A DNA stretch of 64,000 nt from Amoebophrya sp. A120 (lineage: Eukaryota > Protista > Dinoflagellata). The stretch covers positions 1,678,492 through 1,742,491 of the forward strand of contig CAJINV010000012.1 in the NCBI GenBank assembly GCA_905178155.1, written 5' to 3'. Below, in pieces: positions 1,482-61,182 of this stretch (positions within the stretch are counted from its first letter, which is position 1; each line of letters opens with the position of its first letter). The notes under the pieces were generated by a model that saw only the letters and a program-made list of their open reading frames with translations, searched no databases and was not told the DNA's origin. A program made the translations under genes and the position numbers.

Positions 1482-2742
1482 TATCCTGAGGAAAAACGTA
1501 CCCACACCAGAGTTGTAATGCAGATTTGCAAAGACAGGAACATTTGCAATGCGCATCGCCAGGAGAGGCATTTTTAGTCGCGTTTTGGAATTTGTAATGC
1601 TGTAAACAGGATGAGCAGATGGATTTCTGATGCAGCTGGCCTTGCGAACCTGCACTACACTACGGACTGCAACTTGTGATGTGTGACCCCCAAAAGTTCT
1701 AGGCTTGTGTTGCAAAATCCCCATAGCACTGGCGCAATCAAGACGCAGGCAAGAACAACGTGCTGAAGCAGAGGACAAGAGCAGATAGTAAGAATATCAA
1801 AACAAGACGACAAAGCCTTTGATCCGCGAAATTGCTGGAGTGTGAATGTCGTGGACAGCGGAAGGGGTCTCTCACATTACAGGAAACGCCCACCGCCCCC
1901 AAATAGCTTAGTGATCCGAATGATGAATCAACTCGACTACTTAATTTTTACAATCGTTTTACCAGCCGCAGGCTTGCATCTGCGGCTACTGCTACTCTGC
2001 AAACGCCCGGCGTATTTTTCAAAAAAAACATGATCTGCCTCGCTGCAACCGGGGTTAGGACGTACCTCATTCAGGGCGGGCGGTAGCTAAATGCAGACCT
2101 GTGCGGGCTTATGTTTTCTGAAGCGCGCACACAGTCACTAGCGTAACGCAATAGCTTAATCATTTTTGACCGTTTTACGAACTTCGTCGCAAAAGTCCGG
2201 GGCTGCTTCCTCCCGCAGTAAATAGAAGGGTTTAGGTGTTTAGGGTTTTCCGATTCAGAAAAAAATGAAGCTCTTCGTCGACGTGGAAAAAACTGGATCG
2301 GACGTGTGCCGCTGCTACCGGCTCGACACGTAGAAAACGAATTTCGCGCGTTGTGCGGGAGTAGCTACCCCTCCCCTACTTCGGGTTGTAGTTGCCATTG
2401 GCGTCATTGATTGCGGTCGACAATATCCTCGTCCCGATGATTTCCTTCTTTGGGTTTGTGTATGGTGAATAGGAGCTTGCTCCTGATTGGTGCCGCGGTG
2501 TCGGAGGTTTTGCAGCATTCACGCACAGACTGCATTTGTGGAAACGGAGGGGGGGTGTGGGACCCCCATCAAGTCGTCGCGGCGCGAAGCCGCAAATCCC
2601 TGGTCCTCGTTCACCATCAGAAGTGTTCGACCGGTGGGGCGCTCCACTGAAACTGAAACTGAATTTTAGAGGGGGCCTAGCAAAAAAAAAATAAAAAAAT
2701 ACCCATCTTGACTCTGGTGCGGGGATGTTTTTACTCAGGATA
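1482..2742. mobile_element. Introner family C (non-canonical intron) containing a nested ~1-kb insert
   Basis: TIR TATCCTGAG/CTCAGGATA, DR CGTCC; body is the reverse complement of 59838-60116. Confidence 0.85.
1725..2701 (+). mobile_element. A-tailed insertion nested in an introner
   Basis: Absent from sister copy 59838-60116; flanked by CCCAT duplication (1720-1724/2702-2706); ends in an A-rich tail. Confidence 0.7.
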
Positions 2743-2837
2743 CGTCCTGGCGCTCTCTCCTTTTCGAAAGCCAATCCGGTGGTACTGCTCTCCGCATACG
2801 CGAGTAGCAATATGGAAGAAGTAGAGGGCTGATTTGA

Positions 2838-3057
2838 TATAAGAGTGCACAACCCCCCTTCCCCCTCAATTGTGTGGCATTAGCAGCAATACAAACACCC
2901 GCACGCGTGGAGCCCATGCACGACAAATTTACATACGCAATGTAGTACTGTTTGAGCTTCCAGAATTTGTTATGCAAGCAGTGCCACAAGGCACCGATTC
3001 TTGGATTTGGGATTTTGCATGACAAATCAGGGGGAGGGGGAGTTGTGCGCTGTCATA
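2838..3057. mobile_element. Introner family B
   Basis: TIR TATAAGAGTGCACAAC/GTTGTGCGCTGTCATA; DR TTTGA. Confidence 0.85.
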
Positions 3058-3133
3058 TTTGAAGCAAATCGCGGCCCAAGCGGTACGGGACGCCATGAGC
3101 GTGACGCCCGCGCAACTGTTCCAGGAGCACGTC

Positions 3134-3369
3134 TATCAAATGCAAATATGTTTGGGTCTGGAAGATAGAAGTAGAACTTGTGATGCTGCATTTGGATTCC
3201 AAAGAAATCAGCATGGTGAGCAGCAAAGGGAATGTAAATTTTTGCTACGCGGAGAGTGCATTTGTCATGCGGAGCCCTCAAAAAAAGTTGTGATGCTAGG
3301 ACTTGCGTCACAGACTTCACGGGTCATGCAAAATGTGCATGACAAACCGCGACATATTTGCAATGCATA
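3134..3369. mobile_element. Introner family A2
   Basis: TAT..TGCAAATATGT TIR; DR ACGTC; removal gives EHVQTW. Confidence 0.85.
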
Positions 3370-3475
3370 ACGTCCAGACGTGGGCGGAGCTGTGGAAGTC
3401 TGGCGTAGAGATCGAGGGCGAAGAGGAAATCGAGAAGACCGCGATGGCGGGTCTCTATTGGCTGCTCCAGCACTA

Positions 3476-3735
3476 TATGGCTTGCATATATGTCTGGGTC
3501 TGGAAGAGCCAAACTTGTGATGCTGAATTTGGATGCTAACAAAATCTGTATTGCATGAGCAGCAAGAGGAGTCAAACTTGGCTACGCGGAGAGGGCATTT
3601 GTCATGCAGGATGCGCATCGATAGGCGCTCAAAAAATCTGTGATGCTATGGCATACATCAGAAACATCATGGATCATGGAAAATGTGCATAACAAACTTC
3701 TCCTCTTCCAGACCCAGACCTTTTTACATTTGATA
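3476..3735. mobile_element. Introner family A2
   Basis: GTCTGGGTCTGGAAG/CTTCCAGACCCAGAC TIR; DR CACTA. Confidence 0.85.
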
Positions 3736-4020
3736 CACTATCGGGCCGACACCTACTGGTCCAGCTCCCCCGGCGGAATTGCGACTAACAGCTACAACGG
3801 CCATGTGTTTTGGGACACGGAGCTGTGGATGTTTCCCCCGCTGCTCCTTTGGCACCCGGGGATCGCCAAGGCGGCGCTGCAGTACCGTTTGAACACGGTG
3901 CCGGGGGCGCGGGCGCGGGCGAAACTCGGGAACGACCCCTGGCGGAGTGGGGAGCGCGCGCTGCAGGGTTACAGCACGAACGGGGTCCGTTTCAGCTGGG
4001 AATCTGCCATCACGGGGAAC

Positions 4021-4166
4021 TATGCATTGCAAAAGTATCGTACTCGTATTGCAGTCATGCGTGATCTTAAGGTCAATCAGCATTACAACCTTTATCTCTC
4101 ATGCTGAGGAAATTTGTAATGCATTTATATATACGAGTACGATTTACGATACTTTTGCAATTCATA
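4021..4166. mobile_element. Introner family A
   Basis: TATGCATTGCAAAAGTATCGTA TIR; DR GGAAC. Confidence 0.85.
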
Positions 4167-4229
4167 GGAACGAGCAGACACCGCCGGGGTTCGATACGGG
4201 CGCGGCGGAAATCCACAACACAGGCGATG

Positions 4230-4419
4230 TATGCATTGCAAATGTAAGTATCGTAGCTACTCGTACTGATTGCAGATACGCATGACAAATCTACTCTTCC
4301 GTTTCAAGCGAAAAAATCACCATGACATGACAAATTCCGTTCGTCATGCTATAGACAATTTGTGTTGCAATTTTACCTACGGGTGCCTGCTGGTACGGTC
4401 CTTTTTGCAAAAATGCATA
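4230..4419. mobile_element. Introner family A (diverged)
   Basis: TATGCATT/AATGCATA ends; DR CGATG/CGTTG; removal gives GDVAF. Confidence 0.8.
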
Positions 4420-4478
4420 CGTTGTCGCTTTCGAAGCGGATCAATACTACAAGTTGACGCGCGACTTGGACTTCTTGA

Positions 4479-4697
4479 TATAAAAGTGCGCAACTCCCCC
4501 TCCTCCTCATTTGTATAGCATGAACGGCAATACAAGCATCAGCAAGAATACCGGTTTTGCATGACAAATTCGCACTGGATTAAATAGTGCTTTTTCGGCT
4601 TCCAGGATTTGTCACGCAAACAGTGCTACAAGGCAGCAGCTGGATTTGGGATTTTTGCATTACAAATGAGGAGGAGGGGGAGTTGTGAAGTTTCATA
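4479..4697. mobile_element. Introner family B
   Basis: CAACTCCCCCTCCTCCTCATTTG TIR; DR CTTGA. Confidence 0.85.
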
Positions 4698-5115: not shown

Positions 5116-5304
5116 TATCCTGCGCAAAACCAAAAGTTATATCGTACTAGTACAAAGACAAACTCAAACCGCATGAGCAAGTTCTTCAGCATGAGAAATG
5201 GAAATTTGCAATTTGGATTTGACTTAAGATAGGAGATTTCCAATGCATGACTGCATTTAATAATAGTGCCTACCACGACTGCGATACAACTTTCGCAATG
5301 CATA
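5116..5304. mobile_element. Introner family A (diverged)
   Basis: TAT...ATA ends; DR TGGAT/TGGAA; frame restored on removal. Confidence 0.75.
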
Positions 5305-5433: not shown

Positions 5434-5644
5434 TATGACGGTGCACAACTCCCCCTCCCCCTCATTTGTATAGCATTAAGGGCAATACAAGCATCAGCAA
5501 GATTGCAGGTCTTGCATGACAAATTTGCACTGGATTGTAGTGCTATTTGGGCTGCCAGAACTTGTCATGCAAACAGTGCTAAGAGGCACAGGGTCGATTG
5601 GGTATTTTGCATGACAAATGAGGCGGGAGTTGTGCACTATCATA
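5434..5644. mobile_element. Introner family B
   Basis: TATGACGGTGCACAACTCCC TIR; DR GTGCG. Confidence 0.85.
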
Positions 5645-5718: not shown

Positions 5719-5879
5719 TATCCTGCGCAAAAGTATCGTACTCGTACTAGTAATTGCATTCATGCATTACAAATTATCTCTTTCTCAAGGCAAACCAGCA
5801 TTACAAATCGAATTTGTAATGCTGTGCTAATTTGTAATGCATTTTTACGAGTACGAATACGATACTTTTGCAATCCATA
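5719..5879. mobile_element. Introner family A
   Basis: GCAAAAGTATCGTA TIR; DR CCGTG; removal gives WTEYPRGGATNF. Confidence 0.85.
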
Positions 5880-6381: not shown

Positions 6382-6625
6382 TATGGCGTTCTCACACGTT
6401 ACATTCTCAACTGCTCCATGAATTTTTCATGAAGGAATGGCAAACGTGAAAGGGGAGACCTAGCGCGTCTTGCATGACAGATTTAGCACAGATTCTCAGC
6501 CTGTTTGGCTCTTCGAGAATTTGTCATGCGAAGGAGCTTGTTGAAGTTGATCATGTAGCTATTGACGGCAATTTCGCATGACAAATCGTGCCACAGTTGA
6601 GAATGGAACATTTGAGAGTCCCATA
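6382..6625. mobile_element. Introner family D
   Basis: TATGG..CTCACACGTTACATTCTCAAC TIR; DR CCCCG. Confidence 0.8.
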
Positions 6626-6703: not shown

Positions 6704-6864
6704 TATGAACTGCAAAAGTATCGCACTCGTAATAATTGCAGTCATGCATTAGAGATCTTTTTCTTGAGGCTAATCCGCATGACAAATTTTATTTCTCATG
6801 CTGAGGAAATGTAATGCATTTTTTTATAGATACGCATATGAATGCGATACTTTTGCAGTTCATA
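6704..6864. mobile_element. Introner family A
   Basis: Perfect TATGAACTGCAAAAGTATCGCA TIR; DR CTTTG. Confidence 0.9.
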
Positions 6865-8351: not shown

Positions 8352-11300
8352 ATGGACAAGGACAACAAAAGGCCACTGCCGGTGACCCCTGCCCAGCACT
8401 CCCGCGGAACAAGCGGCGGAACGACCTGGGGTCGGAGCACCGCATCCACATCCTCCGGAACCAGAAGTCGCCCTAGAAGCTCGACCACTACTTCCACTTC
8501 ATGCTGCGGCCGCTGTTGGTGGTCCAGAAAGAACTACATCGTCAAGAACACCAAGACGGCTCGGCTCCTTTCCTCTTCTATCACCCTGCAGGTGTTCTTT
8601 CTCCTGCAGTCGTTCTATCTGGTTCAGCATGCGGATCTTGTACACGGAAGACGACGCATGCTGCGTCACGAGAACGACCGGGGGAAAGCAAAAGAGGAAA
8701 TTGGGTACGAGTTCCGCGTATCCTGTGCACAAGCATCGTACTCGTAGTAATCGCAGTTATGCATAACAAATCGCCTCCCTAAGCTAAAACAGCATGACAA
8801 ATTCCATTCGTCATGCTAAGGAAATTTGGAAATGCGATTTATACTTCTAGTACGATGCTTTTGTATTTCATACCACGAGAAGAGCGACCTCTTCCCGCTA
8901 GGCAAGGTGGTTGCAGGTTTGTGGTCTTGGGTTTTCGGCTCGGGTACTTCTACGGTGGAGGAAATGTACGGTTTTAATGTTTCTACGAACGGCACGGGCA
9001 CCAACGCGACCCCAAGCAACAGCACGGCGCCGAATGATACAAGTACGAACATTTCTTCCAACGACACGACAGGGCCCATGGTTGGCGCTACAGCGAGCGG
9101 GGACTACATAGCGGCTGTTGGCGCCAACAATTTGGCAACTAGTCCGACGTACGCTGGTGCTACTACCAATGCCGGTCATCTTCCGAAGAACGCGGGCATC
9201 TTCACTGCTGGGAACATGACGAGTGGAGGTCGGACCAATGGTACCATGATGCCTCTCGCCGCGAGCAGCAGTACAAACATCACAACCCCGGCGGTTTGGG
9301 GCGAGCAAGATGCCATTCGTCGTGCGACGAACAATAGTACTGGCGCCACTTCCAATTGGACCACAACGTCGAATCATACCGCCATCAATTGGACCACCAC
9401 GATCAATTGCACATCCTCTACAGCGGCAGTGTCAGGTATTTTCAGTGAAATTCTGTACCATTTTTTATTTTTTCGACTCTCAGGTTGCTGCACTGCTACT
9501 GGTCAGCACGTCTTGATGTTTGACGCGTTTGTTTTTATTTTTTCAGTGCGCGGTGCTGGCATTTGCATTTTGATTTTTTCGTTGCAAATATGAATCGGTA
9601 TGTTCCGAACTGAGGCACTAGATCAAAACTGTTATTGAAGAAATCCTACGTTCTTGAACAGGGCCGGATCCGGCCCCGCCGCAAGACGATGGCTATCTGT
9701 CCTGGGTTGGCGTAAATCTGGTAAAAACGAGCAGCAACACGAGCGTCACACATGATCAACATCCGGAAGATATGAAGATTCTCACGACGGACACCACTGC
9801 AACACCATTACCACTTGTCGTGACCTCCGGGGAACAGCAAATGCGGGAGGAAGCTGCGAACACAACAATGGTGGTGACGCTGAACAAACTACACCGTGAC
9901 CACGAGCAGTCGTTCACAACGCCAACGAATTCAACTTCCCCAAACACGAGTGCTGCTGCGACAGACGAGACGGTGGGAAAATCAGCGACGAAACGGCACG
10001 CGTCTCTGTTGCCCATCATGACAAAAGAAGTTGAAGATCCTGAAGTTGAAGTTCCTGTGGTACTACGAGATGCTTCTGTTTTAAGCAGCGAAGTAGAAGA
10101 GACACCTGCCTCCACGCAAGAAAACTCGGGTCTGGATGAGGACCACTCTGTCAGTGAAGACATCGACAAACCGAGGCCGGTCGGGGACGAATCTTCGCAT
10201 TATTTGTCCACGCAGGCAAAACTGTTCGAAACATCTTCTGTCTTCCCCAAAAATCTCCCTGATGTACCAAATTCCACGTCGTCCAGTGCTTCAGTGGACG
10301 AATTTCGCTTCATTTCGCCGCACCATGTTGTCTCACAACAAGATGAGGAATCGATTTACTCCTTCCTCGAGTTGAGCCAGGAACTAAATCATCACAACGT
10401 GGTTGCTGCAGAAGAAGATGCTGCGGTAGCAGGACGACAGGAGGGTGTGAAGACCGGTCTTCCACCTGCTGATGCTTCTGTTCGTGCTGGTTTAGACTAC
10501 GTTCCTAGCAAAAAACAAAAATCGAAAACGAGCGCAGCTTCCAAACTTCCACTGCCGTTACATGACGAATCGCCAGCGACCGCGGGAAATGCAGAAGATG
10601 AACACCCGATCGAAGATCCAGAAGAGTTTGACGCCACCTCTGCGCTGTCACAAAGCGGGGCGGAAATTTTCGCGGGGGAGAAGCACGTCGAACAAGGAGG
10701 ACACTCTGGTGAGCGGTCGGAGTACCATACAACTGGAGCAACAGCATCCGAAAATGGAGCTTCCGACAGCGTCGCAGGCGCGGCTGCACATGATCAGTCG
10801 CAAGAAGATGAAGCCGGGCAGAACGTCGTCGGGGTGGAAAGTATTTCGTCTCTGGACGAGCATGCCGAGCTTCCTCCTAGAAGTGACGGTCATGCTGGTG
10901 AAGCTGCAGAAGGGAAGAACGCGGAATCGGACGGTAGTGCTGTGATTGAAGAACCGAAGGACCACGACCACGACGACGAGAAAACTGGCTTTATTACCCC
11001 TGCTTCGGAAGGGAAAGAAGAAACTACCGTGCCCGGCGGAGAACGGGTGGAACGAGGTGCGGCGGAGAAGATGCAGGAGCAAACGAAAGGCGAAGTGGTG
11101 GTGGAGCGTAGCAGCTCGTCCGCAGTTGAGGTGAAACCTGCAGCACTTAGTGTGGCGCCTCCTCCCGGCGGTCCTGGCATATCGAGTCTCGTCTGGGGTG
11201 TGGGGGGTGGTTCTGCTCCCCGGCCTGCTTATGCCGAGTCTCGGGGTGAAGCACTTCCACTTTCTCCGACAACCGGCGGTGCTGCTGCGCTTGGCGTAGT

Positions 11301-14300
11301 TACTGGCGCTGCATCCCTAGGGCTAGGACATGCACGTGTACGAGATCCAGACCGAACGCGAACACGTGTTGTACGTGTACGGGGTGGCCCGGGAGGTGCA
11401 GACGCCAGTGGCGAAGGTGGACGTGGAGGAGGCGGCGGTGGTCCCCCCGTAGGAACTGCTGGCGGTACCCCCGATTCTCATGAAGGTTCTGGTCCTCTCG
11501 CAGATGAAGACCCCAATGCTGTGGTGCTCTTTCTGGGCTACGTGGATTTTGTACTTTCCGAACTCGCGGAACAGCTCCTCGTCGAACTCAAAATCCACGA
11601 AGCGGAGGAAGACGGGAGGAAACCCGATTCTTCATCATCTCTGGATGCTGCAGAATCGACGCCCGCCACGGTATCCAAATCATACACGTGCTCAGACCTG
11701 CTCGAGGTCGTGGAATGGTGCTGGGGATCTTTTCTATGCAAAAAATCAATTTGGGTGTTCGGGCATTCACGGTTTGCATGCCCGGAGTCACTATGTTCGT
11801 GTTCGATGGAGGTCTTCCTCTTCAATTGTTTCTATCGACTTGGCAATGTTAGTGTTACAGTAGAAATAAAAGTACTTACTTAACAAAGTACTTCATCAAC
11901 ACGCGGTGTGCTTCGACGTGTAGTTGATGTATCCATTATCCGTGTTCAATCACTGTACTAGCTGTAGCTGTACCTGGAAGCCGGGTCTATGTACAATGCA
12001 GGTGTGTGTCGAGATTGGTGATCAGCATGACGATTACTTGGTTGCATGAAGAGCTGCGCGCCATTCTTCGCTTCCTGTCTTTCAGTGCAGAAGGGCGAGA
12101 TGCAGCTCGGGAGGCACTTAAATACCACACGTCTCCCCTTGTTGTGCGGGTCTGAGCATATTTCTGTTGGATACTGGGACACCGAGCTTGTTAAGGTCGT
12201 CGAACTAAGTATCAGGCTGAAAAATGTTAATGTTTTCCTTGTGCAGTTTCGGTAGAGACTTCTGCATTTTTTGTGGGTACGACTACCAAGAAAGAAAATT
12301 GTAGGCAAGCCCATCTTTGCGTGCGAGATTCACCAGCCCCGACCTGCTGTGGATGGGGGCTTTCTAAAGGCGCCCACCGCTTGTGCACGTAGGTTCGTTG
12401 CATGATGACGGTCGCGCAGCTGATCAGGCCATAAATTGCTATATCTAATGAACAATTCATGCTGGCAGACAGCTAAAGTCATTCAGCTAAAGTCAATACT
12501 GTGAAAAAAGCTCGGCGGGCTTCTTTTTCTACCTGATACTCAAGGGCCCATCGGACAAACCAGTCACAGTCGTAGCCGCGACCGGAACGGTAGCTGCGAG
12601 GGACATGGCGGCAGCATTGTGGTATGCATTGCAAGTCTGTCTGGGTCTGGAACAGGGCAACTTGTGATGCTGAGTCCGAAGTAGCCAAAAATCTGTCTTG
12701 CAAAGAGAGCAAAAAGTGTGCGCTTTTTGTTTCTTGAACAAGAGGGAACTTCTCATGCAGGCTCGGCATGGAAATGCCTCAGCAGACCTTGTCATGCTCT
12801 GCGTGCAGTCCAGTCCTTCTCCTTGTTCTTGCAGGTTCAAAAAATACATGATCATGACATTCTTCCAGACCCAGACATATTTGCAGTTGATATCCGGTAC
12901 GCGATGACGATTGAAAAGGATTGGGTACAGAGTATCGCGGGCAGCATCGACCTGATCGTGGAGCGCCTCAAAAATCTCGATCGGAAATACCCGATGATAG
13001 CCGCTGCGTTCGCCGCCACGGGTGCAGCGAGTCTGGTGCTGATTCCGGGCGCCTCGGCTGCACTCGGTGCTGCAATTGCAGCAGCACCAAAAGTCGCAGA
13101 GGTCGCACGGCATGCCAATGTAGCTGCACACATTGGTCTCATCGTGTCGAGGATGATTGCAAAACTACCCCATGTACCGGGCTTCCCTGCCTGGACCGAT
13201 CTCCGATCGAAGGTTCTTGCTCAGGCGGCGCGAAGAGACGCAGGGTTCACTACCATACAGGAGGAGCTAAAGCTAGCAGCTGATGAGCCAGAATCTCCCG
13301 CTGCGTCATCTACCACGACTGCGACGTTCACACTAGCGCTAGCAACTGGTGGCAGGACCATTACGGAATGGCTGGTCGACTCTTTGGTTCTTCCGGATGA
13401 TTGGGGACTTGCGTTTCCTGTATCGCTTGAGGCAAGTTTCCAGCCGCATTGCTTCGCAGCTCACGCTCGGCTGCCCCCAATCATCGGCAAAACAACACCT
13501 GCTATCGCGTTCAGCATTTTCTTCCACACCGTCATCGTAGAGAAGGTCTGGGACTTTTTCATGGACGCGATCGTAAAGGAGCGCATCTTACACCCCCTGT
13601 ACAAATGGGGTGCCTGGGCGCTCCTTTCTGACGACACCGCGCAGGTTCTCTTCAATCCCGACAGCGTCGTCTACCAAGACGAGGTGCGGGAGCTTGATGA
13701 CCTCATTGAAAGACTGAAAGCGAAGGATATCGAACCTGAGGCAGCCTTGGAATTCGCTGAAAAGATACATCAAAAGAAAGCCGCCAAACGCGAAGCGAAG
13801 AGCTCATGGAGAACATGGCTGGAGGAAAAGGTTTTTGATTATGGTCCAACAAAGGAAAGAGACCCGAACTACACTGCCTTACTGGGCAAAGTGTTGGAGG
13901 GACTGAAAAACGACCCGCAGACCCCAAAGGAAGCGATTGGCGAGGACGTCCGCGAAGATTCTCCATCTACATCACCCCGTGAATTGCTTCGCGAAGATCA
14001 GCTCTTAGGAATGGGGAAACAGCCGCCGCAAAACTTCAAGATGGTCGAGGCTCTGCCCCTATCAATTGCAAATATGTCTGGGTCTGGAAACTTGTGGCGC
14101 TGCTTGAGAAAAGCGAGGACGCCAACGCCTCCATTGAGTGGCAAGCATGACAGGTCTTGGGGGTGCTACAGTATTGTCTTTTCTGCATGGCACAGCGAGC
14201 TTTGTTTTGCAAGACAGAACAGTGGGGCTTTTGTGTAATGCGCAGGACAGACTTGAGAGTCAGACGAGCATGACAAGAAACCCTGGATCTTTCCAGACCC

Positions 14301-49900: not shown

Positions 49901-52900
49901 CACAGGATATGCAAAAAAAACTGGAGCAGCAGCTCGAGGACTGGAGAGACCAGACGCTTTTCGAAGAATTTCAAGAAGGGCTAGTGCTTGCCGAGGGAAC
50001 GGGAAGGATAACGCAAAAACAAAGAGAAAGCTGTGCGACGAAGTTGTCACGCGGCGAGGACAGAAAGGTGGGCTATTCCGATCTAGTCCTTGGGCCGCAG
50101 CTGTGCGGGGCGAGTACTGGTGCTGGGGTGGAAATGGGTCGACGTTTAGAAGGTGTGTCTGGTTCAACAGCAGCAGCAAGAGCAACATCAACCAAAAACG
50201 AAGACGACACGACGACTACTTCAGCTGAACAGGATGACTCACTGCCGCACGACGACAAGTCCCCGCCGCGCAAGGCTTCTCCGCCGTCGGCGGAAGAGCA
50301 AAGGCTATTAAAGCTGTGGCAAACCATCTACTGTCCGTCCCCGTTGTTTTTTCGACAAAACACATCAGCCTGCGCGGAGGTCACAGCTGCGCTGCATCAA
50401 AAGTCATCTCAGACAGATCATGAAAGAGCAGGCTCTGGTGGCTCTAGATCATCCCCCTCCTCAGCGTCGACCTGTGATGTTAGTGGTTCAAGCGGAAGCT
50501 CGCGTGAACAGGCAGGAACGACAAGTACTAGAGAGCACCCAGCGAAGGCTTATTCGGAATCGGAGGTGCAGGAAAAACAAAGTTTGTTTGATGCCGACGT
50601 ACCAATGAAAGTAGGGCAAGTAGAAGAAGGACGACAGCCACCACCAGCACCATCAACAGCACAGCCGCAGCGCAGCGCCTGTGAAAAGACCACAGCGTCC
50701 TCTTCTCAAAGACCACCGCAGGAGAAGATCTTGCCATGCCAACACCGCTACATGTCGGAAGCGTTTGAAAAGTCGAAGCAGTTGAAGATTTTCCTGACCC
50801 GCATGGCAAATCGCCTCCGCATGTGGCACTTTCTCGGTCTCCAGGCGACTGTAAACGAGAACGATGTATGCCCGATCTGCTTGGAACCGGTGCTGATAAG
50901 CCGCGGCGGTGGGAAGATGCAGAAGGATAAGACGCATGACAAAGTGACAGACTCTTCCTCATGCAGCAATGGTGCCGAGGATGATATCTCCGAGCTTCTC
51001 GTGTCGTGTGCCTCCAGACCGGTCGCGCACGTGATGCACGCCAGCTGCTATGTGCAGCATGGGTACGAGCTCGGGGGCAAAAAACAACTCTACCGGAAAC
51101 GGAGTCGTCGGTTTCTCCGGGACTGCCCGGTCTGTCGCGAGTCGAAGTTCCCGCGGATGAGAGGACGCGTACGAGAAAATGACGTGGCAAATAAAGCCGG
51201 TCCACACATCTTTAATGATGCGAAGGTGCCTGCTGACGACAGCGAGGACAAGAAAAAGACTTCTCTATCAAGAACCTCAGAAAGAGAAAGAAGGTCGGAG
51301 GTGCAAGAAAACCTTAACACCAGCACGGAGAAGAATAACCAGGCCGCCAATAGTTGTGTCTTCGAGTCCGACTCGAGTTTGCTAACCGCGGCGTTGAAAC
51401 GGGCTCTGTGTTGCAATCGGCGGGTGGCTCTGTCAAATTTCGAGAAGAAAAAGCTGCTGCTGCTGCAGCAAGCAAGGCTGGAGAAGGAGCAGGCGCAAGC
51501 AAAGCTGGCAAGGGACGAGCGGGCGGTGAAACAAGAAAAGGAACTACACGAAGATCATACTGATGCTCTTTCGTCGGAGCGAGAGCGTGATCTTGAGAAC
51601 CGCCCCGCTTCAGCCTCCTTTTCGTCCCGGTTATTTTCGCCCAATAATTATGCGAGCAATGTGTGGCGCCTGAGCAGCAGCGCAGCTAGCAGCTCTGGAT
51701 CTGCAGCTACAACAACCTCCGCGATGAACAACGTCGAACTGGATCCACCAGCATCCGAAACCATCCTCCTCCGCACCCGCAGCACCGCCGCTGAAGAAGT
51801 GGCGACGCGGTGGAATAACGTGATGGAGGTGTTTCGCAACGCACTCTCGACAATTGCTATCCAAGAAAAAAACTGTGTTAGTGTAAACTTTCTTTGGCTG
51901 ACAGCATCTGCTCTACATGACAGAGAAAACCTGTCATGCGTGGCTTACAAGGGAAAACACACAGGAAAAGAAGACCGCATGGTTGTCTGGCATGACAGGT
52001 GTAAACAGTTTTGCATTTTCTGCATTACAGAGCTACACTTAGACAGTTTTTTTCTTGCATAATTGCGGACGAAGACAGCGAAGACGAGGATAGCTGGCTG
52101 GAAAGCTGGAGCTCCTTTCTCGACGTCGTTCCGCTGGTATGACAGTGCACGACTCCCGCTCGTCCCCCTCATTTGTCATGCAAAATACCGAATCGTCCAC
52201 ATCTTGCGCTTGCCTTTAAGCACTCTGCGCATGACAAGTTTTGGACGCCCAAACGCCCAAACAGGACTACATTCCACATTTACGGACTTGTCATACGAAA
52301 GCTACGTTTGTGGCATTGCTTCTGTTCCTGTTGCTGCTCATGCTACAGTACAAATGAGGAGGAGGGGGAGTTGTGCACTCTCATAGCTGGCGCCTGCTGC
52401 TGCTCCGAGCGAGGGAACAAGATCTACAGTCCGCGGAGGTGCAACGGCGAATGTAATGCCATCGAATAACTTGTTGAACTACAATTTGAATGATTTGGTT
52501 TTTCAGCAACTGCAGGACAGTCTTCTAAACCACAATCGTAACGACCACACTAACATAAACATGCCAACGAACGCAGCTGACTTGGACGAAACCGCCGGGA
52601 TTTGGGGCGGTTTGGCCCTGATGCCGTTCGCGGACGCGATTTCTAATCGAGGGACAGCACAGGAACAGGACATGCCGTGGTACCAATTCGGCGGCCCGCC
52701 GGTGCCATATCCTGTGCAAAAGTATCGTACTCGTATTGCAGTCATGCATTACAAATTTTTTTCTGAAGCTAAATCCGCATATAGATTTCTCATGCTGAGG
52801 AAATTTCTAATGCATTTATACGAGTGTATCGAAGAAAAAAACACCATCACAGTCACAAAATTCAAATTTTCAAAATTTTGCAGGAGCTGAACAAAAAATT

Positions 52901-54845
52901 ATTTTGATTTTCAGGTAAGAAAATACTTTTCAATTCTCGAATGCGAATGTATTTATTTTTGTGTTAGCTATTTGGTTATGTCAAAAATGGCGGTTTGAAT
53001 AAGCTAGTTAAGAAAGAGTTCTGAAGACAAACGATCAGCTTCCAGCAGACGAAGCTTGGTAGATGGGGTTGTCGCCCTCGTCTGGCCCCAGGTGGGGCCA
53101 GAGGGCGACAACCCACACTACCACTGTTCGTCTGCTGGAAGCTGAACGATTGTCTTCAGAAATCTCTCTTCTTAACTAGCTAGCTTACCATGCGAGCTTA
53201 ACTTAATCATGCGAGCTGCTTCGGCAGTTTTTACCGTCCTCTTGCTATCACAATCACTCCCTTTGGCTGCAGCGGATGTCGTGCAGTCGATCGTGGACCA
53301 TAATGCAGAGGCTTTCAGCCCCGAAACCAATGCGGCTGGCGGAACGGCGAAAGGTATCTACTTATATTGCTTTTTTAACAACGGGCTCATTTGGTGCTTG
53401 CGCCTCGAGGTCTCTTGGTGCTTGCACCTCGGGGTTTAGGGTCGGAACGTTCCCAGCACCGCTGGAAGCACTGAACCTGAAGGGCGTGCACGCCTGGAAG
53501 GATCCGAGCATGGCGCTTTACTAGCGCCTTTTCAACGTTTACCTTCATCCTCCTTTTTGTTTCTGCTGTTTTCCTTTTCTCGGGCCCTACTGGCACCAAG
53601 CAGTTTCTTTCTGCGGCTCCCGCCCTTCCTGCTGTCGGTTTTGTCCTATTTTAGTTTTTTTCATATGTGCACATGACGATGTGTACATGATCATGCGTAC
53701 CGCGGCCTTCTCCTTTTTCTGCACGGGCAGCTTCCCTCCAACACATCTCCCCTCCACGTCTCCGTCACGTCCCGGATGCCGACCCGGTCCAGCAGCCGAC
53801 GCAGGGGTTTTAGGGTTTAGGCTTTTAGGGTTCTCCTATTTTGATCTTAACTAGCTAGCTTACCGCCAATAGCCAATATCATAAATCATCTGCTTCAAAA
53901 CTCAACATTCAAAACCAGATACAACAGGTTCGGGAGTGCCGCGAAAGTCCAACGAAATTTTAATTTTGATGGTCAAAAATTTTGAAAATTTGAATTTTGT
54001 GATTGTGATGGTGTTTTTTTCTTCGATAGAGTGCGATACTTTTGCAATGCATATGCCACGACCGGCGCAACAAGGTGCTGGTGGTTCCACCACTGTAGTT
54101 CCCCCAAACCGACCAGTGACTTTGACCACAACCAATCTTCCGGATGACCAAGAACACAATTCCTCCTCGTGGAGCTACACCCAGGTCAGGCGAGGCTTGT
54201 TGAACCGGCTAGGATTTAGCCGTGGCAATGTCAATGCTGCTCAGGTAGAGGATGAAGCTAGAAGTACGGCTAGCAGTACAACTCGGAACGAGCGGAGACG
54301 AGCAGGCAGTTCGCCGGAAGTAGATGGACCTGCTCCCTCTCATCGCGAACTCATTATGCTACTCAACTTGAACCACGGCACTGCTGCGGCGGGGACAGGA
54401 GTTGCACCAAGCGACAGCCCGAGAAACTACTACCAAAATGAAAATGTTTTTGACTCTGCATCTTCTGCTGCTTCTCCGCACCCACTGCAGCCGATGCCAA
54501 TTCCGGTCCGGGTCCGGTTGGAACATGCCTTGGTTCCGGATGACGTGTTATGCTCTGCAAAAATGTGGCGCTCGTAGTACTTACTCGTTGCAATTCTGCA
54601 TTGCAAATCGTATTCAGATAGGAAAATCAGCAAGACAAACTCCGATTGGTTTTTGAAAAAGTTTGTCATGCGATGTTTACTAGCTGCGATATTTTTGCAA
54701 TGCATACGTACGAGCCCTGATCCAGGAAATTCATTCCGATGACGTGCGGTATCTCTGGCTCGCAGTGGAGGAAGCGCCAATGGTGTCGGTCGGATGCCTG
54801 GCGTTTTTGACGGTCCTACTAGAAAAAGCGTGGAGCCCGATGTAG
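46946..54845 (+). CDS. Large low-complexity RING-H2 finger protein (putative E3 ligase); 5 introners; start uncertain
   Basis: CPICLEP..CASRPVAHVMHASC..CPVCR at ~50869-51138; exons join in frame across five introners to TAG at 54843-54845. Confidence 0.75.
49757..49909. mobile_element. Introner family A
   Basis: TGCAAAAGTATCG TIR; DR TGCAA; joins the 955-aa and 717-aa ORFs. Confidence 0.9.
51858..52061. mobile_element. Introner family E
   Basis: TATCCAAGAAAAAAACTGT TIR; DR ATTGC. Confidence 0.85.
52138..52385. mobile_element. Introner family B
   Basis: TATGACAGTGCAC TIR; DR GCTGG. Confidence 0.85.
52708..54053. mobile_element. Introner family A with nested 1.2-kb TIR element
   Basis: TGCAAAAGTATCG TIR; DR TGCCA. 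Confidence 0.85.
52827..54028. mobile_element. 1.2-kb non-autonomous TIR element (TAT...ATA, 5-bp TSD)
   Basis: ~50-bp TIR TATCGAAGAAAAAAACACCATCAC...; TSD GAGTG; internal 180-bp hairpin. Confidence 0.85.
54549..54706. mobile_element. Introner (family A-like)
   Basis: TATGC..TGCAAAAAT TIR; DR CGTGT/CGTAC. Confidence 0.75.
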
Positions 54846-56172: not shown

Positions 56173-59100
56173 ATGTTTTGCGGTGGTGCCTCCGGTCCAT
56201 ATACGACGGATTTGCCGCAGCCAAAGCCGTGTCGCGAAGGCTGGAAGCAGACGGTCGATCGCCAGCCGCCGTATGGTGTGTACCAACCGGGGACGGCAAA
56301 CAAGGACCTGGGGGTACGGAAATGGAAAAACATAGAACAGAAGCCGTCATGTGTTGTCATGCAGGTGTCTGCAGCAGTGTTACGTTTTGTCATGCAGGGA
56401 CTGCATTTGATTTCGATGCTTCTTGACAAGACTTTTCACTCCATACTCTCTCGGTCCCATCCTGTACAACAGCGCGTACAAGGACACATGGAAGTTGCCG
56501 ACAGGTATCAGATAGATCATGAACTACCCGATCTTCACACTGAAAAGCTGTCATGCGGAAACAGCATGTTGCAAAGATCTTGTGATCTTCATGTTGAAGA
56601 TCCACTAGCTGCAAAATTAAGTAAGGTAACTAGCATCACATCGAAATCACTATATCAGGCCCCGTCTCCGGCCACAAGAATATCATCGAGTGCTGGCACA
56701 ACGCCTGCCTGGACTTATGAACTGCAAAAGCATCGTACTAGTATAAGTCGCATGACAAATTTCCACAGCATGAGAAATAAAATTTGTAATGCGGATTTAA
56801 CTTCAGAGAGAAACTTGTAATGCATGACTGCGATTACTACGAGTACGATACTTTTGCAATGCATAGGACGGCAAGGACGGCAACGCCATGGGGTATATGC
56901 AGTGCAAATATGTCTAGGTTATTTGGAAGGTTGCGCACTTGTCAAGCTTAGTCCGGATCGTATAAAAATTTGTGTTGCAGGATTGCCAAATGTTGTTCAC
57001 TTTTGACCAAGTTGGGAGAGCTTTTCTCATGCAGGATAGGCATGATCACAGAGGTCTCGCAGAGTCTGTCATGCTAGGTCCTGCATTGCAGCCTGTCATG
57101 GGTTATGGACAACCTGCATGACAAGTCTCGCAACCTGCAGACCCAGACATATTTGCATTTGATAGGCTACCGCAAGCTGATCGACATCGTGTACGAAAAG
57201 GACCCGATATGCGAAGAAAAAAGTGTTACCGTTACACATTGTGTTGCAGGCCAAGCAAGACAGACAATCTCTGTCATGCCGGATATGCATCATGGGAGCC
57301 TAGTTTGTTCATAGATACGCGTTTTCCCTTGTTATGATCTCTGCATTGCAAGCTTTTCCTCTCATGCAGAGAAATAAATCTGTGTTGCTAAATTGTTGAC
57401 AACAAATGTGTAATTGTAAAACACTTTCTTCCTTGGATACCCAAAGGACGGCAAAGAATACGAAAAGCTGCACCTCGCGAACGAGCTCACCTACGTCACC
57501 TACACGCAGTTGCTCGACCGTGTGAAATATCAAGTGCAAAAGTATCGCACTCGTATAAATGCATTACAAATTTTCCCAGCATGAGAAATGAAATTTGTAA
57601 TGCGGATTTCCCTTAACGCCTAAATTTGTAATGCATAACTGCAATTGGTACGAGTGCGATACTTTTGCACAGGACATGAAGGCCTTCACCATGGGTTTGA
57701 AGGACTTCACTGGTGAGGACTTCTTCGCGAACAAAAACTCCCGCGGCGTCATTTTATGAGAGTGCACAACCCCCCCTCACGACCCTCATTTCTAATGCAA
57801 AATACCGAACCCACCTCTTGCCTCTAAGCACTGTACGCATGACAAGTTTTGGACGCCCAATCAGGACTACAATCCATGTCCGGATTTATTGTCATGCAAA
57901 AGCTACATTCATCCTCATCGTGGCATTCGCATTCCTTCTGTTGCTGCTCATGCTATACAAATGCGGGGGACGGGGAGTTGTGCACTGTCATACACTTTCG
58001 CGGACACGCAGATGGACTGGATGTGCTCCGTATGGATTGCAAAACTGTCTGGGTCTGGAAGATTGCAACTTGTCATGGTAAATCTGAAGCATGCAAAAAT
58101 CTGTGTTGCATGAGTGCCAAAAGCTGCAAACTTTTGAACGAGTTGGAAGGAAGTTTCTCATGCAGGATAGGCATGGCAGAGACCTCGCAGAGTCTGTCAT
58201 GCTAAGTCCCGCATTCCAGACCTCATGGGTCATGGAAAATCTGCATGGCAAGTCCGCAGCTTACTTTCCAGACCCAGACACTTTTATTTTTGATACTCCG
58301 CGCTCGGGTTCTTTTCCCAGGCACTCCCGATCGTGACGGTTTACTCGACTTTGGGGGAGGAGGGACTGAAGTTCGCGCTGACGCAAACCTCCGCGGAATT
58401 CGTCGTCACCGACGCGAAACTGGCCAAGGTGCTGGCCAAGGTGCTGCCCTCGGTGAAATCCACGATGAAGTACGTGGTTTTACTCGGCGACGCGAAGAAG
58501 TACTGCAGTGCGGAGGTCATTATCAACTGCAAATATGTCCGGGTCTGAAAACTTGGCATGCATGTCAGTGAAAAATAAGCACACTGCAATGCACCGCCAA
58601 GCATGACAGATTTTTTCGTGGCTCCTCTGTGTTGTGGATTCTGCATGAGATGAAGCTGCGTTTTTGGATGGCAGACGCAAGGAGCTGCTCTACTTCGTGG
58701 CCCCGCAATGCAGATCTCGGAGTCATGCCAGACTAGCATGACACTCTTGCTCTTCTAGACCCTGACATATTGGCAGTTGATAGTCATGAAGACGTTATCC
58801 GAAAACGTCAAAGTCGGAATTTTCAACGAACTGGTAGAGATCGGTGCGCCAAAGATCATATGCAAATTGCAAAAGTATCGTACTAGTAGGAATTATTGCA
58901 TATACAAATTTTATTCTCAGAAATAACACAAATGGAATTTGTGATACTGATTCAGCTACTAAAGTAGATTTGTCATGCGAGGCTGCAATTTTTACTACGA
59001 GTATCTGATACTGTTGCAGTGCATAGATCAGCGAATGGGCGATTAAACCGGTGAGTTTGGAGGAAACGGCAGTGATCATGTACACCTCGGGGACCACCGG

Positions 59101-61182
59101 GAATCCGAAGGGCGTCGTCATCTCGCACGGCAATGTCGCTGCTCTAATTGCGGCGGGGGAGCAGGTCTTCGCGGGGATGGTGGAAGCGGGGGATACGGTG
59201 CTGGCGTACTTGCCCTTGGCGCACATCATGGAGATCGCGAGTAGAATGGAAGTGATGGCTTCACCTGCTATGCTCGGCATGCATAATTTGCATATTACAA
59301 TACTGGCAGATCATGTTCCTTTACTTCTGTCCCAATAAGTCTGGTGTACTATAAATGCGAGAAACGCATCAAATAAACCAAAAGGTGAAGTGACCTGTAT
59401 GTCGACCGGAGTGACGCTCTGCTACGCGAACCCGCACACATTATCCGCGACCGGTGTGAAGCTGAAAATACCGGAATCGAAGGGAGACTTCGAGGTTTCG
59501 AGGCCGCACAGCCTGCTGTTTGCGCCAGCGGTGTTGGAAAAAGCGTACAACGGGTTGAACTTGCTCTTTGCGAGTGGGATTAAGAAGAAGATTTTCGACG
59601 GTATACATAGTGTAGTTAGATAGTCGTGTAGTTTGTAATGCGACAACACACGACCATGGATGTTGCGCGTCTGATTTAAGTATTTCCTTTTCAGTTTTCT
59701 GTCATGCATACCGCACTAGCTACAAATCACTGCATATTACCGTTGTGGATGATTTAGATTCGCATTACAACGAACAGCCGCCGTCCGCAACGGGAAAGCG
59801 AAGTTCCAAGCCTCCGGCGTGACCCGCGACGAGTGCTTATCCTAATGAAAAACGTCCCCACCCCAGAGTCAAGATGGGGATTTTGCAACACAAACGTTGG
59901 AGTTTTGGGAGCCACGCATGACAAATTGCTAGCTGTAGTGTAGTGCAGTTTAGAAAGGGAAGTCGCATTACAAATCCATCTGCTTATCCTGTTTACAGCA
60001 TTACAAGTTCCAAAACACGATCGGAATTGCCTATCATGGGGATGCGCATTACAAATGCTCTTGCGCTTGCAGATCTGCATGACAACTCTGGGGTGGGGAC
60101 GTTTTTACATAGGATAGTGCTACTTGGGTACCACCGGCTGCTTTCCCAACATTGTCTGCAAGAAGATCCGGGCCCGGTTCGGCGGCCGACTGAAGGCGGT
60201 GTTGACCGGTTCTGCCCCGTTATCGAAGGACTTGATGTGCTTTTTCCAGACGATTTTGGGGATTCCGGTGCGACAGGGATACGGATTGACGGAAACGTGT
60301 GCGGTGTCGTGCATCGCCTTCTGGTGCGACAACACGCCCGCGAGCGTCGGGCCGCCAGCGATGGCGTCGGTATAATGATGGTGTGAGTTGTTGTAATGCA
60401 GAATCAGAATCTCGGTCTGTGTTTGTCATGCGGGAATGAGACTAGGTATTGAAGGCGTGTCATACTCAACTACATGCAAAATAAGGTCATCCGGCTCCGT
60501 GACTGGGAGGAGGGCAACTACAAAACGTCCGACGAGCAGGACCCAAATATCGGCAAACCGCGGGGGGAGGTGTTAATTGGCGGTCCGATGGTTACGCAGG
60601 GGTACTTCATCAAAAACCCATCCGATCCGGACGAAGAGGACCAGGCCTTGATGTATGACTCGCTCAAACGTTACAATCTCAAACGTTACAATAGAGTCTG
60701 GAATTTGTGTTGCATGATGAGCATGACAGACTCGCACAGCGTTCCACCTTTTGCAATAGAAACTTTGCCAGATTGTAGGGGGGTTTGGGGCTCAGGAACT
60801 TGTCATGCGCAATCCTATGAGAGTTGATGGCGAGAGGACTATGCACTCTTGCGTCACAGATTTCCATACTCTATTCGTAACGTTTGAGATTGCAACACCT
60901 GAGCGGGTTACATGATGCAGAAAAACAAGGAGGAATACCTGGAGGTCGACGGATACCGGTGGTTATCGTGTGCAAAAGCATCGTACTCGTACTAATCGCA
61001 GTCATGCAAAACAAATTTCATTTTCAAGCTAAATCAGCATGACAAATTCCGTTGGTCATGCTGAGCTAATTTGTGTTGCAATACTACGAGTACGATACTT
61101 TTGCAGTTCATAGTGGTTTTGCTCCGGCGATATTGGCCAGATCTCCCAGCACGGGACCTTGCAAATCGTGGACAGGAAGAAG
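56173..61182 (+). CDS. Long-chain acyl-CoA synthetase (AMP-binding family); 3' end lies beyond the window
   Basis: Spliced motifs VIFADTQMDWM, VTVYSTLGEEG, IMYTSGTTGNPKGV, YLPLAHIME, FGGRLKAVLTGSAPLS, QGYGLTET, PRGEVLIGGP, WFCSGDIG, IVDRKK; 11 introners plus GT-AG introns (~56314-56658, 59241-59384, 59601-59778, 60370-60486, from 61183). Confidence 0.92.
56716..56865. mobile_element. Introner family A
   Basis: TIR; DR GGACT/GGACG; body antisense to 6704-6864. Confidence 0.85.
56896..57164. mobile_element. Introner family A2
   Basis: TGCAAATATGTCT TIR; DR GGGTA/GGCTA. Confidence 0.85.
57208..57439. mobile_element. Introner family E
   Basis: TAT..AAAGTGTT..TTACACATT TIR; DR CCCGA/CCCAA. Confidence 0.8.
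57528..57676. mobile_element. Introner family A
   Basis: GTGCAAAAGTATCGCACTCGTA TIR (right end ACA); DR TGAAA/TGAAG. Confidence 0.85.
57755..57992. mobile_element. Introner family B
   Basis: TATGA.AGTGCACAAC TIR; DR CATTT/CACTT. Confidence 0.85.
58031..58295. mobile_element. Introner family A2
   Basis: TGTCTGGGTCTGGAA TIR; DR CTCCG. Confidence 0.85.
58521..58782. mobile_element. Introner family A2
   Basis: TATCAACTGC.AATATGTC TIR; DR GTCAT. Confidence 0.85.
58859..59025. mobile_element. Introner family A
   Basis: TATGCA..TGCAA TIR; DR GATCA. Confidence 0.85.
59838..60116. mobile_element. Introner family C
   Basis: TATCCTA..AAAAACGTCCCCACCCCAGAGT TIR; DR GTGCT. Confidence 0.9.
60654..60912. 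mobile_element. Introner family D
   Basis: CAATCTCAAACGTTAC IR (right end ACA); DR TGATG. Confidence 0.8.
60964..61112. mobile_element. Introner family A
   Basis: TGCAAAAG.ATCGTACTCGTA TIR; DR GTGGT; removal gives YRWFCSGDIG. Confidence 0.9.

What the first reader, a model, noticed from the sequence alone, without database searches (positions are those of the whole stretch)
1513..61070. Shared intronic motif TTGT(C/A/G)ATGC / GCAT(G/T)ACAA in introners AND canonical introns
This ~9-mer recurs, usually several times and in both orientations, inside all six unrelated introner families (e.g. four copies in 5719-5879). It also occurs in GT-AG introns of the acyl-CoA synthetase (~59633, 60391, 60423) and of the giant transposon's genes (~21556, 22731, 23051, 26746, 29160, 30077, 32688). 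By eye it is rare in exons. Inference: a genome-wide intron-marking or protein-binding element that the TEs exploit to be spliced, possibly linking canonical and non-canonical splicing.
Basis: partly seen in the sequence, partly recalled or inferred. Interest (0 to 1): 0.8.

Follow-up and report, generated by a model that had tools for sequence, protein, structure and literature searches.

The report
Helically phased sites inside jumping introns
The jumping-DNA introns in this genome (likely the marine parasite Amoebophrya) share one 11-letter sequence, often repeated three DNA-helix turns apart, which is likely a protein docking site that helps them move, and the ordinary-looking introns that carry it are likely worn-down old copies.

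Summary
The motif is real: 79 copies in the window against 1.7 in shuffles. It is the core of a longer asymmetric 11-bp site, GCAWBASARAT. All 32 family introners of the window and 448 of 448 auto-detected introners in 583 kb of related loci carry it, in 14 families that are mostly unrelated outside the site. The geometry is DNA-like: same-direction pairs 31-33 bp apart (11 of 14 families) and outermost sites 36-39 or 46-50 bp from the ends. One family has all six sites in one direction yet sits in genes either way round (16/23), which argues against a single-strand RNA signal. It is not a general intron mark: 52 of 80 predicted GT-AG introns and one RNA-verified GT-AG intron lack it. The positive ones cluster in introner-rich genes and keep introner end traces. 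Best reading: binding sites for a shared transposition factor (0.5). Rival: a DNA-bound host splicing aid (0.3), kept alive by strong sites in repeat-less introns and one motif-free nested element. Side result: one splice register (1 nt before TAT, 4 nt after ATA) fits all 12 informative RNA joints.

The parts
1482..2742 (.). Family-3 introner (1482-1724 + 2697-2742) with a motif-free nested insert at 1725-2696; 2 strict, 6 matrix sites
2838..3057 (.). Family-4 introner; 1 strict, 4 matrix sites
3134..3369 (.). Family-1 introner; 4 strict, 6 matrix sites
3476..3735 (.). Family-1 introner; 2 strict, 5 matrix sites
4021..4166 (.). Family-0 introner; 2 strict
4230..4419 (.). Family-0 introner, diverged; 1 strict
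4479..4697 (.). Family-4 introner; 2 strict
5116..5304 (.). Family-0 introner, diverged; no strict copy, 4 matrix sites
5434..5644 (.). Family-4 introner; 3 strict
5719..5879 (.).
6382..6625 (.). Family-7 introner; 2 strict
6704..6864 (.). Family-0 introner; 1 strict, same-direction pair 31 bp apart
8719..8872 (.). Family-0 introner; 1 strict, pair 31 bp apart
9436..9661 (+). Predicted GT-AG intron with no site; homologous to TIR-type intron 37990-38176 of the paralogous gene, which keeps one
11672..12173 (+). Old TAT...ATA intron candidate with inverted ends and no site
12623..12892 (.). Family-1 introner; 2 strict
14060..14320 (.). Family-1 introner; 1 strict
15024..15310 (+). Family-1 introner that now has GT...AG ends (predicted); only weak internal sites
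16983..36444 (.). Giant element with TTA...TAA inverted ends and 5-bp target duplication TACAA; no strong site near its ends; genes of unknown family on the - strand
20489..20635 (-). Predicted GT-AG intron, no inverted ends; site at 20563
21531..21735 (-). Predicted intron, 5' end uncertain; site at 21555
21874..22084 (-). Predicted GT-AG intron ending ATA-TC-AG; site at 21925
22626..22765 (-). Predicted GT-AG intron; 3 matrix sites including 22731
22989..23202 (-). Decayed TAT...ATA intron (not GT-AG); sites at 23051 and 23088
23979..24127 (.). Two strong outward-facing sites in non-coding DNA of the giant element; weak family-1 similarity (E 0.015)
26226..26385 (-). Old TIR-type intron; 4 matrix sites
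26709..26813 (-). G-TAT...ATA-G intron, GT-AG and TIR element at once; site at 26745
27501..27707 (-). Old TIR-type intron with no site
29104..29194 (-). Predicted GT-AG intron, no inverted ends; near-perfect site at 29160
29452..29606 (-). Predicted GT-AG intron; 2 strong sites including 29518
30034..30141 (-). Predicted GT-AG intron; sites at 30076 and 30114
32632..32770 (.). Palindromic hairpin element with an outward-facing pair (32687, 32712); not shown to be an intron
36748..37168 (.). Family-1 introner with nested insert 36974-37124; 2 strict
37673..37955 (+). Decayed family-4 introner; 2 strict
37990..38176 (+). G-TAT...ATA-G intron with inverted ends; site at 38035
40986..41199 (+). 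Old family-8-ended intron; ends kept, one weak site
41283..41702 (+). Old family-1-ended intron; 1 strict
49757..49909 (.). Family-0 introner; 1 strict
51858..52061 (.). Family-2 introner; no strict copy, 3 matrix sites
52138..52385 (.). Family-4 introner; 2 strict
52708..54053 (.). Family-0 introner interrupted by the nested element below; 1 strict
52827..54028 (.). Nested TAT...ATA element: perfect 5-bp duplication, ends 52/53 identical and 29/31 identical to a family-11 introner end, yet no site
54549..54706 (.). Family-0 introner; 1 strict
56314..56449 (+). RNA-supported GT...CT intron (G-TAC...ATA-CTCT); duplication lost; two sites 33 bp apart (56354, 56387)
56505..56658 (+). RNA-supported GT-AG intron with introner relics (duplication ACAGG/TCAGG, TAT...ATA); one matrix site
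56716..56865 (.). Family-0 introner, RNA-supported; 3 strict
56896..57164 (.). Family-1 introner, RNA-supported; 1 strict
57208..57439 (.). Family-2 introner, RNA-supported; no strict copy, 4 matrix sites
57528..57676 (.). Family-0 introner, RNA-supported; 3 strict
57755..57992 (.). Family-4 introner, RNA-supported; 2 strict
58031..58295 (.). Family-1 introner, RNA-supported; no strict copy, 5 matrix sites
58521..58782 (.). Family-1 introner, RNA-supported; no strict copy, 3 matrix sites
58859..59025 (.). Family-0 introner, RNA-supported; 1 strict
59241..59384 (+). RNA-supported GT-AG intron with no site (counter-example to a general intron mark)
59601..59777 (+). RNA-supported GT-AG intron, no inverted ends; strict copies at 59633 and 59762
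59838..60116 (.). Family-3 introner, RNA-supported; six sites all in one direction (spacings 31, 49, 33, 48, 31)
60370..60485 (+). RNA-supported GT-AG intron; two same-direction sites 32 bp apart (60391, 60423)
60654..60914 (.). Family-8 introner; 1 strict, 5 matrix sites
60964..61112 (.). Family-0 introner, RNA-supported; 1 strict (61037)

Best explanation
The motif is the core of an asymmetric 11-bp site that sits in helically spaced arrays inside all the TAT...ATA introner families examined, and it is likely a double-stranded-DNA binding site for a transposition factor that these families share; GT-AG introns that carry it are likely eroded introners. Shown: the site, its enrichment, its spacing, its strand independence and its absence from most predicted GT-AG introns. 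Inferred: a protein (the transposase or a host helper) binds pairs of sites three turns apart, on one face of the helix, in phase with the element end. This would help assemble the transposition complex, so elements with unrelated bodies converge on the same site. Splicing is inferred to rest on the ends instead: 1 nt before TAT and 4 nt after ATA is the only register that fits all informative RNA joints. An insertion into NNAG|G therefore gives a G-TAT...ATA-NN-AG intron at once, which then loses its repeats and in time its sites.
For: (1) Geometry tied to element ends, counted once per family: 11 of 14 families have a same-direction pair at 31-33 bp (null 1.9); 20 of 28 ends have the outermost site at 36-39 or 46-50 bp (null 6.7; windows chosen after seeing the data). 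(2) Family 3, with six same-direction sites, lies 16 sense and 23 antisense in predicted genes. Introner sites are 1016 sense and 1105 antisense. (3) It travels with the element: 18.6 sites/kb in genic copies and 14.8 in family-matching DNA predicted as intergenic, against 0.65 in other intergenic DNA and 0.26 in exons. (4) The elements are mobile: L002 and L012 differ by presence or absence of introners, with empty sites. (5) 52 of 80 predicted clean GT-AG introns lack a site, as does RNA-supported 59241-59384. (6) Positive GT-AG introns sit in introner-rich genes (25 of 55 against 3 of 25) and keep ATA at -7 (5 of 38 against 0 of 56) or TA at -6 (11 of 38 against 3 of 56). Paralogous introns 37990 and 9436 show a TIR intron with a site becoming a plain GT-AG intron without one. 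Farhat 2021 reports direct plus inverted repeats in 15% of A120 canonical introns. (7) Core positions of 477 genic copies differ from consensus at 4.8%, about the neutral post-insertion rate read from target duplications (4.1% and 4.8% at codon positions 1 and 2, 9.6% at position 3). Copies stripped of strong sites are not under-represented (3 observed, 0.7 expected). (8) Precedent: Lemi1/Emigrant subterminal motifs and the Ost35 internal enhancer.
Against: (1) No transposase or binding protein was found, and binding is untested. (2) Element 52827-54028 has family-11 ends and a perfect duplication but no site, and sits where it needs no splicing of its own. (3) Repeat-less GT-AG introns hold more strong sites than neutral decay predicts: 8 strict copies in the ten giant-element introns against about 1.5 at the divergence needed to erase the repeats (p about 2e-4). 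Strong sites are 43% of sites against 16-29% simulated at 15-35% divergence, and the positive introns show no inverted-repeat remnant (z 0.13). Positions 1-2 of the expected duplication match at chance (7 of 28 each). (4) In diverged copies the core is better kept in genes (245 of 2898, 129 copies) than between genes (28 of 135, only 7 copies). (5) Several core columns in the two largest families vary less than neutral, and a rare-allele count gave 2.6% against 5.95%, a measure I judge biased downward. (6) Families with different long inverted repeats sharing one site suggests a host protein, which would have a host job.
Confidence: 0.5

Rival explanations
1. A host protein binds the site on double-stranded DNA and helps co-transcriptional splicing (or chromatin set-up) of introns. 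Only transposons that carry it are tolerated in exons, and introner-derived GT-AG introns keep it by selection.
For: Motif-free nested element 52827-54028. Excess of strong sites in repeat-less GT-AG introns. Intron 56314-56449 has lost its duplication but keeps two sites 33 bp apart and is spliced. Same-direction pairs in GT-AG introns fall on introner spacings, 6 of 19 against 2.3 expected, p 0.02. The core is better kept in diverged genic than intergenic copies. U1 snRNA was not detected in A120 (PMC7789003).
Against: Most predicted GT-AG introns and one RNA-supported one lack it. TIR-type intron candidates with no site at 10 bits exist (11672, 27501, L042:13413, L006:2517), although none has RNA proof. 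No exon avoidance, no last-site protection, and average core divergence equals the neutral rate. Phase relative to DNA ends is more natural for a transposition complex than for a flexible RNA (inference).
Confidence: 0.3
2. The site acts in RNA, as a single-strand protein site or as a paired stem that extends the terminal hairpin.
For: Several families (1, 6, 7, 10, 12) have mirror-image outer sites that could pair.
Against: Family 3 has six same-direction sites that cannot pair with each other and occurs in both orientations; RNA-supported copy 59838-60116 is one of these. No strand bias in GT-AG introns (29 against 34). Spacing peaks at 31-32 bp, fitting B-DNA better than A-form RNA. No Rfam match in the window.
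Confidence: 0.07
3. No function: the site is a relic of common ancestry or module shuffling among the families.
For: Families 7/8 and 4/8 are related outside the site (2 of 91 pairs); the test had little power for families 0 and 1.
Against: 89 of 91 family pairs show no similarity after masking. Core positions are far more constant than other interior positions (4.8% against 9.1%). Spacing is conserved while spacer sequence is not.
Confidence: 0.05
4. The site is a target for base modification or a nucleosome-positioning signal rather than a factor-binding site.
For: Pair plus gap gives an 80-86 bp repeat in families 1, 3, 4, 5 and 6, close to one nucleosomal superhelical turn (about 80 bp, recalled).
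Against: 13.8 bits of specific, asymmetric information is more than positioning signals usually carry (recalled). No modification data were available.
Confidence: 0.08

Closest known systems
Amoebophrya sp. A120 introner elements (Farhat et al. 2021, PMC7789003; saw abstract, passages, section 12 and supplement passages)
   Same: TAT-started inverted ends with an A-run, short direct repeats, non-canonical junctions, sizes near 240 nt; 15% of canonical introns with the same repeats.
   Different: The passages I saw describe no internal shared motif or helical phasing, and leave the splice position unresolved (1-5 nt from the repeat). Here one register fits all 12 joints.
Emigrant MITE / Lemi1 subterminal repeated motifs (PMC1636448; abstract and outline only)
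   Same: Repeated internal motifs in a MITE, bound cooperatively besides the terminal repeats.
   Different: One element family with a known transposase; here one site across 14 families with different ends, spread through the body, and no binder known.
Stowaway Ost35 internal enhancer and mPing internal regions (PMC3660474 passages; PMC9921582 abstract)
   Same: MITE interiors can raise mobility, and a longer non-autonomous relative can lack the enhancer, as 52827-54028 does here.
   Different: Those elements are not introns, and I saw no phased 11-bp array described.
Coral CMITEs (PMC2872659; abstract only)
   Same: Internal sequence more conserved between families than the terminal repeats; role in transposition proposed.
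   Different: A contiguous homologous region there; discrete phased sites in otherwise unrelated bodies here.
ApiAP2-type TGCATGCA and Oct-Sox composite site (both recalled; one search gave a listing only)
   Same: Share the letters GCATG, or TTTGTCATGC.
   Different: The site is asymmetric: weighted TGC-N3-ACA 107 against TGC-N3-GCA 15. It has no ATGCAAAT extension and is absent from host intergenic DNA.

Membership tests
A120-type introner elements | Inverted ends starting TAT with an A-run, flanked by short direct repeats | tested here: met
A120-type introner elements | Spliced out at non-GT-AG junctions | tested here: met
   Joints in contigs of runs X1 and X4 (guessed RNA, one study); register
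MITE subterminal/internal binding-site arrays | Carried by non-autonomous TIR elements that move | tested here: met
   Presence/absence with empty sites between L002 and L012
MITE subterminal/internal binding-site arrays | Repeated sites at set distances from the ends | tested here: met
MITE subterminal/internal binding-site arrays | Independent of the transcribed strand | tested here: met
MITE subterminal/internal binding-site arrays | Present in the autonomous partner | tested here: inconclusive
   No autonomous element found; a long relative (52827-54028) and the giant element's ends lack it
MITE subterminal/internal binding-site arrays | Bound by the transposase and needed for mobility | not testable with these tools
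   Needs binding and excision assays
Intronic splicing enhancer (RNA-protein site) | Bias to the sense strand | tested here: not met
   1016/1105 in introners and 29/34 in GT-AG introns
Intronic splicing enhancer (RNA-protein site) | Present in most introns, at a set distance from a splice site | tested here: not met
   38 of 94 GT-AG introns; distances scattered
Intronic splicing enhancer (RNA-protein site) | Avoided in exons | tested here: not met
   57 observed against 36 expected in 190 kb of predicted exons
Intronic splicing enhancer (RNA-protein site) | Purifying selection after insertion | tested here: inconclusive
   Neutral on average; signs of retention
ApiAP2 TGCATGCA-type site (recalled) | Palindromic TGCATGCA core enriched upstream of genes | tested here: not met
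   Asymmetric; 0 strict copies in host intergenic DNA

The most novel reading that the evidence does not exclude
An organism in which U1 snRNA was not detected marks introns on the DNA: a sequence-specific protein binds helically phased 11-bp sites and licenses co-transcriptional splicing at a fixed register from the TAT/ATA ends, whatever the junction letters. Transposons become harmless introns by picking up this mark, and the GT-AG introns derived from them keep it.
Probability: 0.25. Interest if true: 0.9.

Novelty: new variant of a known kind. Interest (0 to 1): 0.62.

Why it matters
How Amoebophrya A120 moves and splices its tens of thousands of non-canonical introns is open: Farhat 2021 found no transposase in A120 and no U1 snRNA. 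A shared, phased 11-bp site gives a bait for pulling down the missing factor and a marker for telling introner-derived GT-AG introns from ancestral ones. The fixed register explains how an insertion into NNAG|G makes a canonical intron in one step (9 of 428 intact copies are GT-AG under it). If the binder is a host splicing aid, it would be a DNA-level intron mark.

Tried and rejected
No whole genome is held, so genome-wide counts were impossible. Raw-read runs X9 and X10 laid 0 and 4 reads: no test. The giant element's genes had no cover in four contig runs; this is no evidence on expression. Two scans of viral contigs for introner ends found nothing. Pfam gave no hit above cut-off for 14 exon pieces of the giant element and the window's 3' end. 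The protein atlas gave no usable hit for one piece and was unreachable for the other. Rfam: no match. Earlier scan notes: nothing. A first motif fit looked palindromic and was rejected after an orientation-mixture fit. The reversed-sequence control is invalid, because reversal keeps inverted repeats, and is not used. The rare-allele test is biased because recurrent transitions count as common alleles; the column tests replace it. A search for duplicated insertions gave 2 pairs, with no substitutions at sites in the one examined, so it had no power. GT-AG introns without a site show at most a slight excess of weak sites (32 against 22.6, sd 4.9, at 5 bits). Target-duplication mismatches show no drift toward GT or AG.
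Full report
Setting. The window is eukaryotic gene-dense DNA with many TAT...ATA elements flanked by 5-bp duplications. This matches the introners described for Amoebophrya sp. A120 (PMC7789003); the organism is my inference, as no genome is held. Host genes include a GH65 hydrolase and an AMP-binding (acyl-CoA synthetase-like) enzyme. Contigs of runs X1 and X4 (guessed RNA, one study) show 15 joints in the synthetase gene; 12 further joints were not displayed. As a second data set I fetched loci with an exact family-0 end. Of 134 loci, 128 remained after removing overlaps, and the 70 of at least 2 kb (583 kb) were analysed. The 75 loci listed by name all come from one assembly (JACKZZ01). They share introner families with the window and are biased toward introner-rich regions.

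Observation. The strict 9-mer occurs 79 times (38 on +, 41 on -) against 1.7 in shuffles. Per kb it is 7.6 in family introners, 3.3 in old TIR introns, 5.0 in repeat-less GT-AG introns, 0.06 in exons and 0 in host intergenic DNA. In the 70 loci it is 9.0/kb in 448 auto-detected introners and 0.63/kb elsewhere.

What the motif is. An orientation-mixture fit gives an asymmetric site, GCA W B A S A R A T, of 13.8 bits. It occurs at about 21 per kb, and 448 of 448 detected introners have at least one site at 9 bits. Among 537 full-length profile hits, 2 have none at 10 bits. All 14 multi-copy families carry it. After masking the site and the ends, 89 of 91 family pairs show no similarity; power was low for families 0 and 1. 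Counted once per family, 11 of 14 have a same-direction pair 31-33 bp apart (null 1.9), and 20 of 28 ends have the outermost site at 36-39 or 46-50 bp (null 6.7; windows chosen after inspection); three more lie at 57-60. These are steps of one B-DNA turn. Family 3 has six same-direction sites and lies 16 sense and 23 antisense in predicted genes. I infer that the site is read on double-stranded DNA.

Canonical introns. Gene models for the loci come from my own gene finder. On the synthetase gene it placed 10 of 15 RNA joints exactly but only 2 of the 4 GT-AG ones, so the counts that follow are noisy. Of 213 predicted GT/GC-AG introns, I kept the 80 that start GTA, are at most 260 nt, have flanking exons of at least 40 nt, and show no family match or inverted ends. 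The others were set aside as 49 with a family match, 4 with inverted ends, 29 at contig edges and 51 other. The 80 have 3.0 sites/kb (shuffle 0.48, intergenic 0.65, introners 18.6); 28 have a site, with 24 sense and 17 antisense sites. In the window 13 of 17 repeat-less introns have one, 56314-56449 included, but RNA-supported 59241-59384 has none. Positive introns lie in introner-rich genes (25 of 55 against 3 of 25; introns within a gene are not independent) and more often end ATA-NN-AG (5 of 38 against 0 of 56, p 0.009). The positive share, 38 of 94, is close to the strain-specific share of A120 canonical introns, about 45% by my arithmetic from 35% canonical and 19.4% conserved. Individual cases show the path: 15024-15310 is a family-1 copy with GT...AG ends; 56505-56658 keeps a 4/5 duplication and TAT...ATA; and paralogous introns 37990 and 9436 differ by loss of both the 3' repeat and the site.

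Splice register. Across 12 RNA joints at TAT...ATA-type introns, the only register that fits all is 1 nt before TAT and 4 nt after ATA; joint 56313-56450 allows no other. This assumes one rule for all. Under it, 136 of 428 intact copies start GT, 31 end AG and 9 do both. An insertion into NNAG|G is thus a canonical intron from birth.

Is the site kept after insertion? Target duplications mismatch at 4.1%, 4.8% and 9.6% at codon positions 1, 2 and 3, implying roughly 3-5% neutral change. Core positions in 477 genic copies differ at 4.8% and other conserved interior columns at 9.1%. Copies with no strong site are not depleted. Both fit selection during movement only. Four results point the other way. 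Repeat-less GT-AG introns hold more strong sites than simulated decay allows; the simulation used point changes and single-base indels only, so loss of ends by deletion or origin from unsampled families could explain this. Diverged intergenic copies lose the core faster than genic ones, on 7 copies. Some core columns vary less than neutral. And 52827-54028, with family-11 ends and a perfect duplication, has no site and is nested. I call this test inconclusive.

Mechanism and rivals. Best (0.5): phased binding sites for a factor shared by all families that helps build the transposition complex. The motif-free long element would parallel the non-autonomous Osmar14 element, which lacks the Ost35 enhancer. 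Rival (0.3): a host DNA-bound splicing aid. RNA-level action (0.07), modification or nucleosome signal (0.08) and functionless ancestry (0.05) fit worse. No binder was identified; the giant element's proteins match no Pfam family above cut-off and its ends lack strong sites.

Literature. Searches listed no paper describing this internal motif in Amoebophrya; the exact-sequence search showed 30 of 939 papers, none on this organism. I saw: PMC7789003 (abstract, passages, section 12, supplement passages; figures not visible); PMC12130899 (passages and supplement passages; files 13 and 14 not searched); PMC9860276, PMC11282704, PMC12005148 and PMC3660474 (passages); PMC1636448, PMC2872659 and PMC9921582 (abstract and outline). 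Roy et al. 2023 (Curr Biol) was not read. Unseen figures and supplements could show the motif. The ApiAP2, Oct-Sox and nucleosome-turn comparisons are recalled. Family numbers 0-13 are my own labels.

Verdict. 'Universal intron mark' is not supported, while 'shared protein site' is. It is a new variant of MITE internal binding arrays, with an open and testable chance of a DNA-level splicing role. Interest 0.62.

Noticed in passing
window 56173-61182: One splice register (1 nt before TAT, 4 nt after ATA) fits all 12 RNA joints at TAT...ATA-type introns; the junction letters themselves are free.
   Followed up: yes
window 16983-36444: A 19.5-kb element with TTA...TAA ends, 5-bp duplication TACAA, long internal repeat arrays and at least three intron-containing genes of no known family. 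Its ends start TTA like the A25 introner ends described in PMC7789003.
   Followed up: partly
window 8719-8872 and 36748-37168: Paralogous genes carry different introner families inserted about 2 nt apart at the same spot, which suggests an insertion hot spot.
   Followed up: no
window 362-7477: The GH65 gene has 12 introners, an apparent frameshift near 720 and an in-frame TAA near 5044: a pseudogene or assembly errors.
   Followed up: no
window 52827-54028: Motif-free TAT...ATA element nested in an introner, with further inverted-repeat elements nested in it.
   Followed up: partly
L002:3075-3353, 3419-3687 and L012:2255-2506: Closely similar alleles or paralogues differ by three introner insertions; clean empty sites are visible for the two in L002.
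   Followed up: partly
window 30480-30520: Frame change between two long reading frames in a giant-element gene, with no intron found.
   Followed up: no
window 61294-64000: Purine-rich long reading frames with no Pfam match after the last synthetase intron; possibly another inserted element.
   Followed up: no
window 44468-46391: Contigs of runs X1 and X4 cover this stretch in one unspliced piece that runs about 850 bases past the reading frame.
   Followed up: no
L004:2204-2726: A second motif-free nested TAT...ATA element, with an 8-bp duplication, perhaps another superfamily.
   Followed up: no
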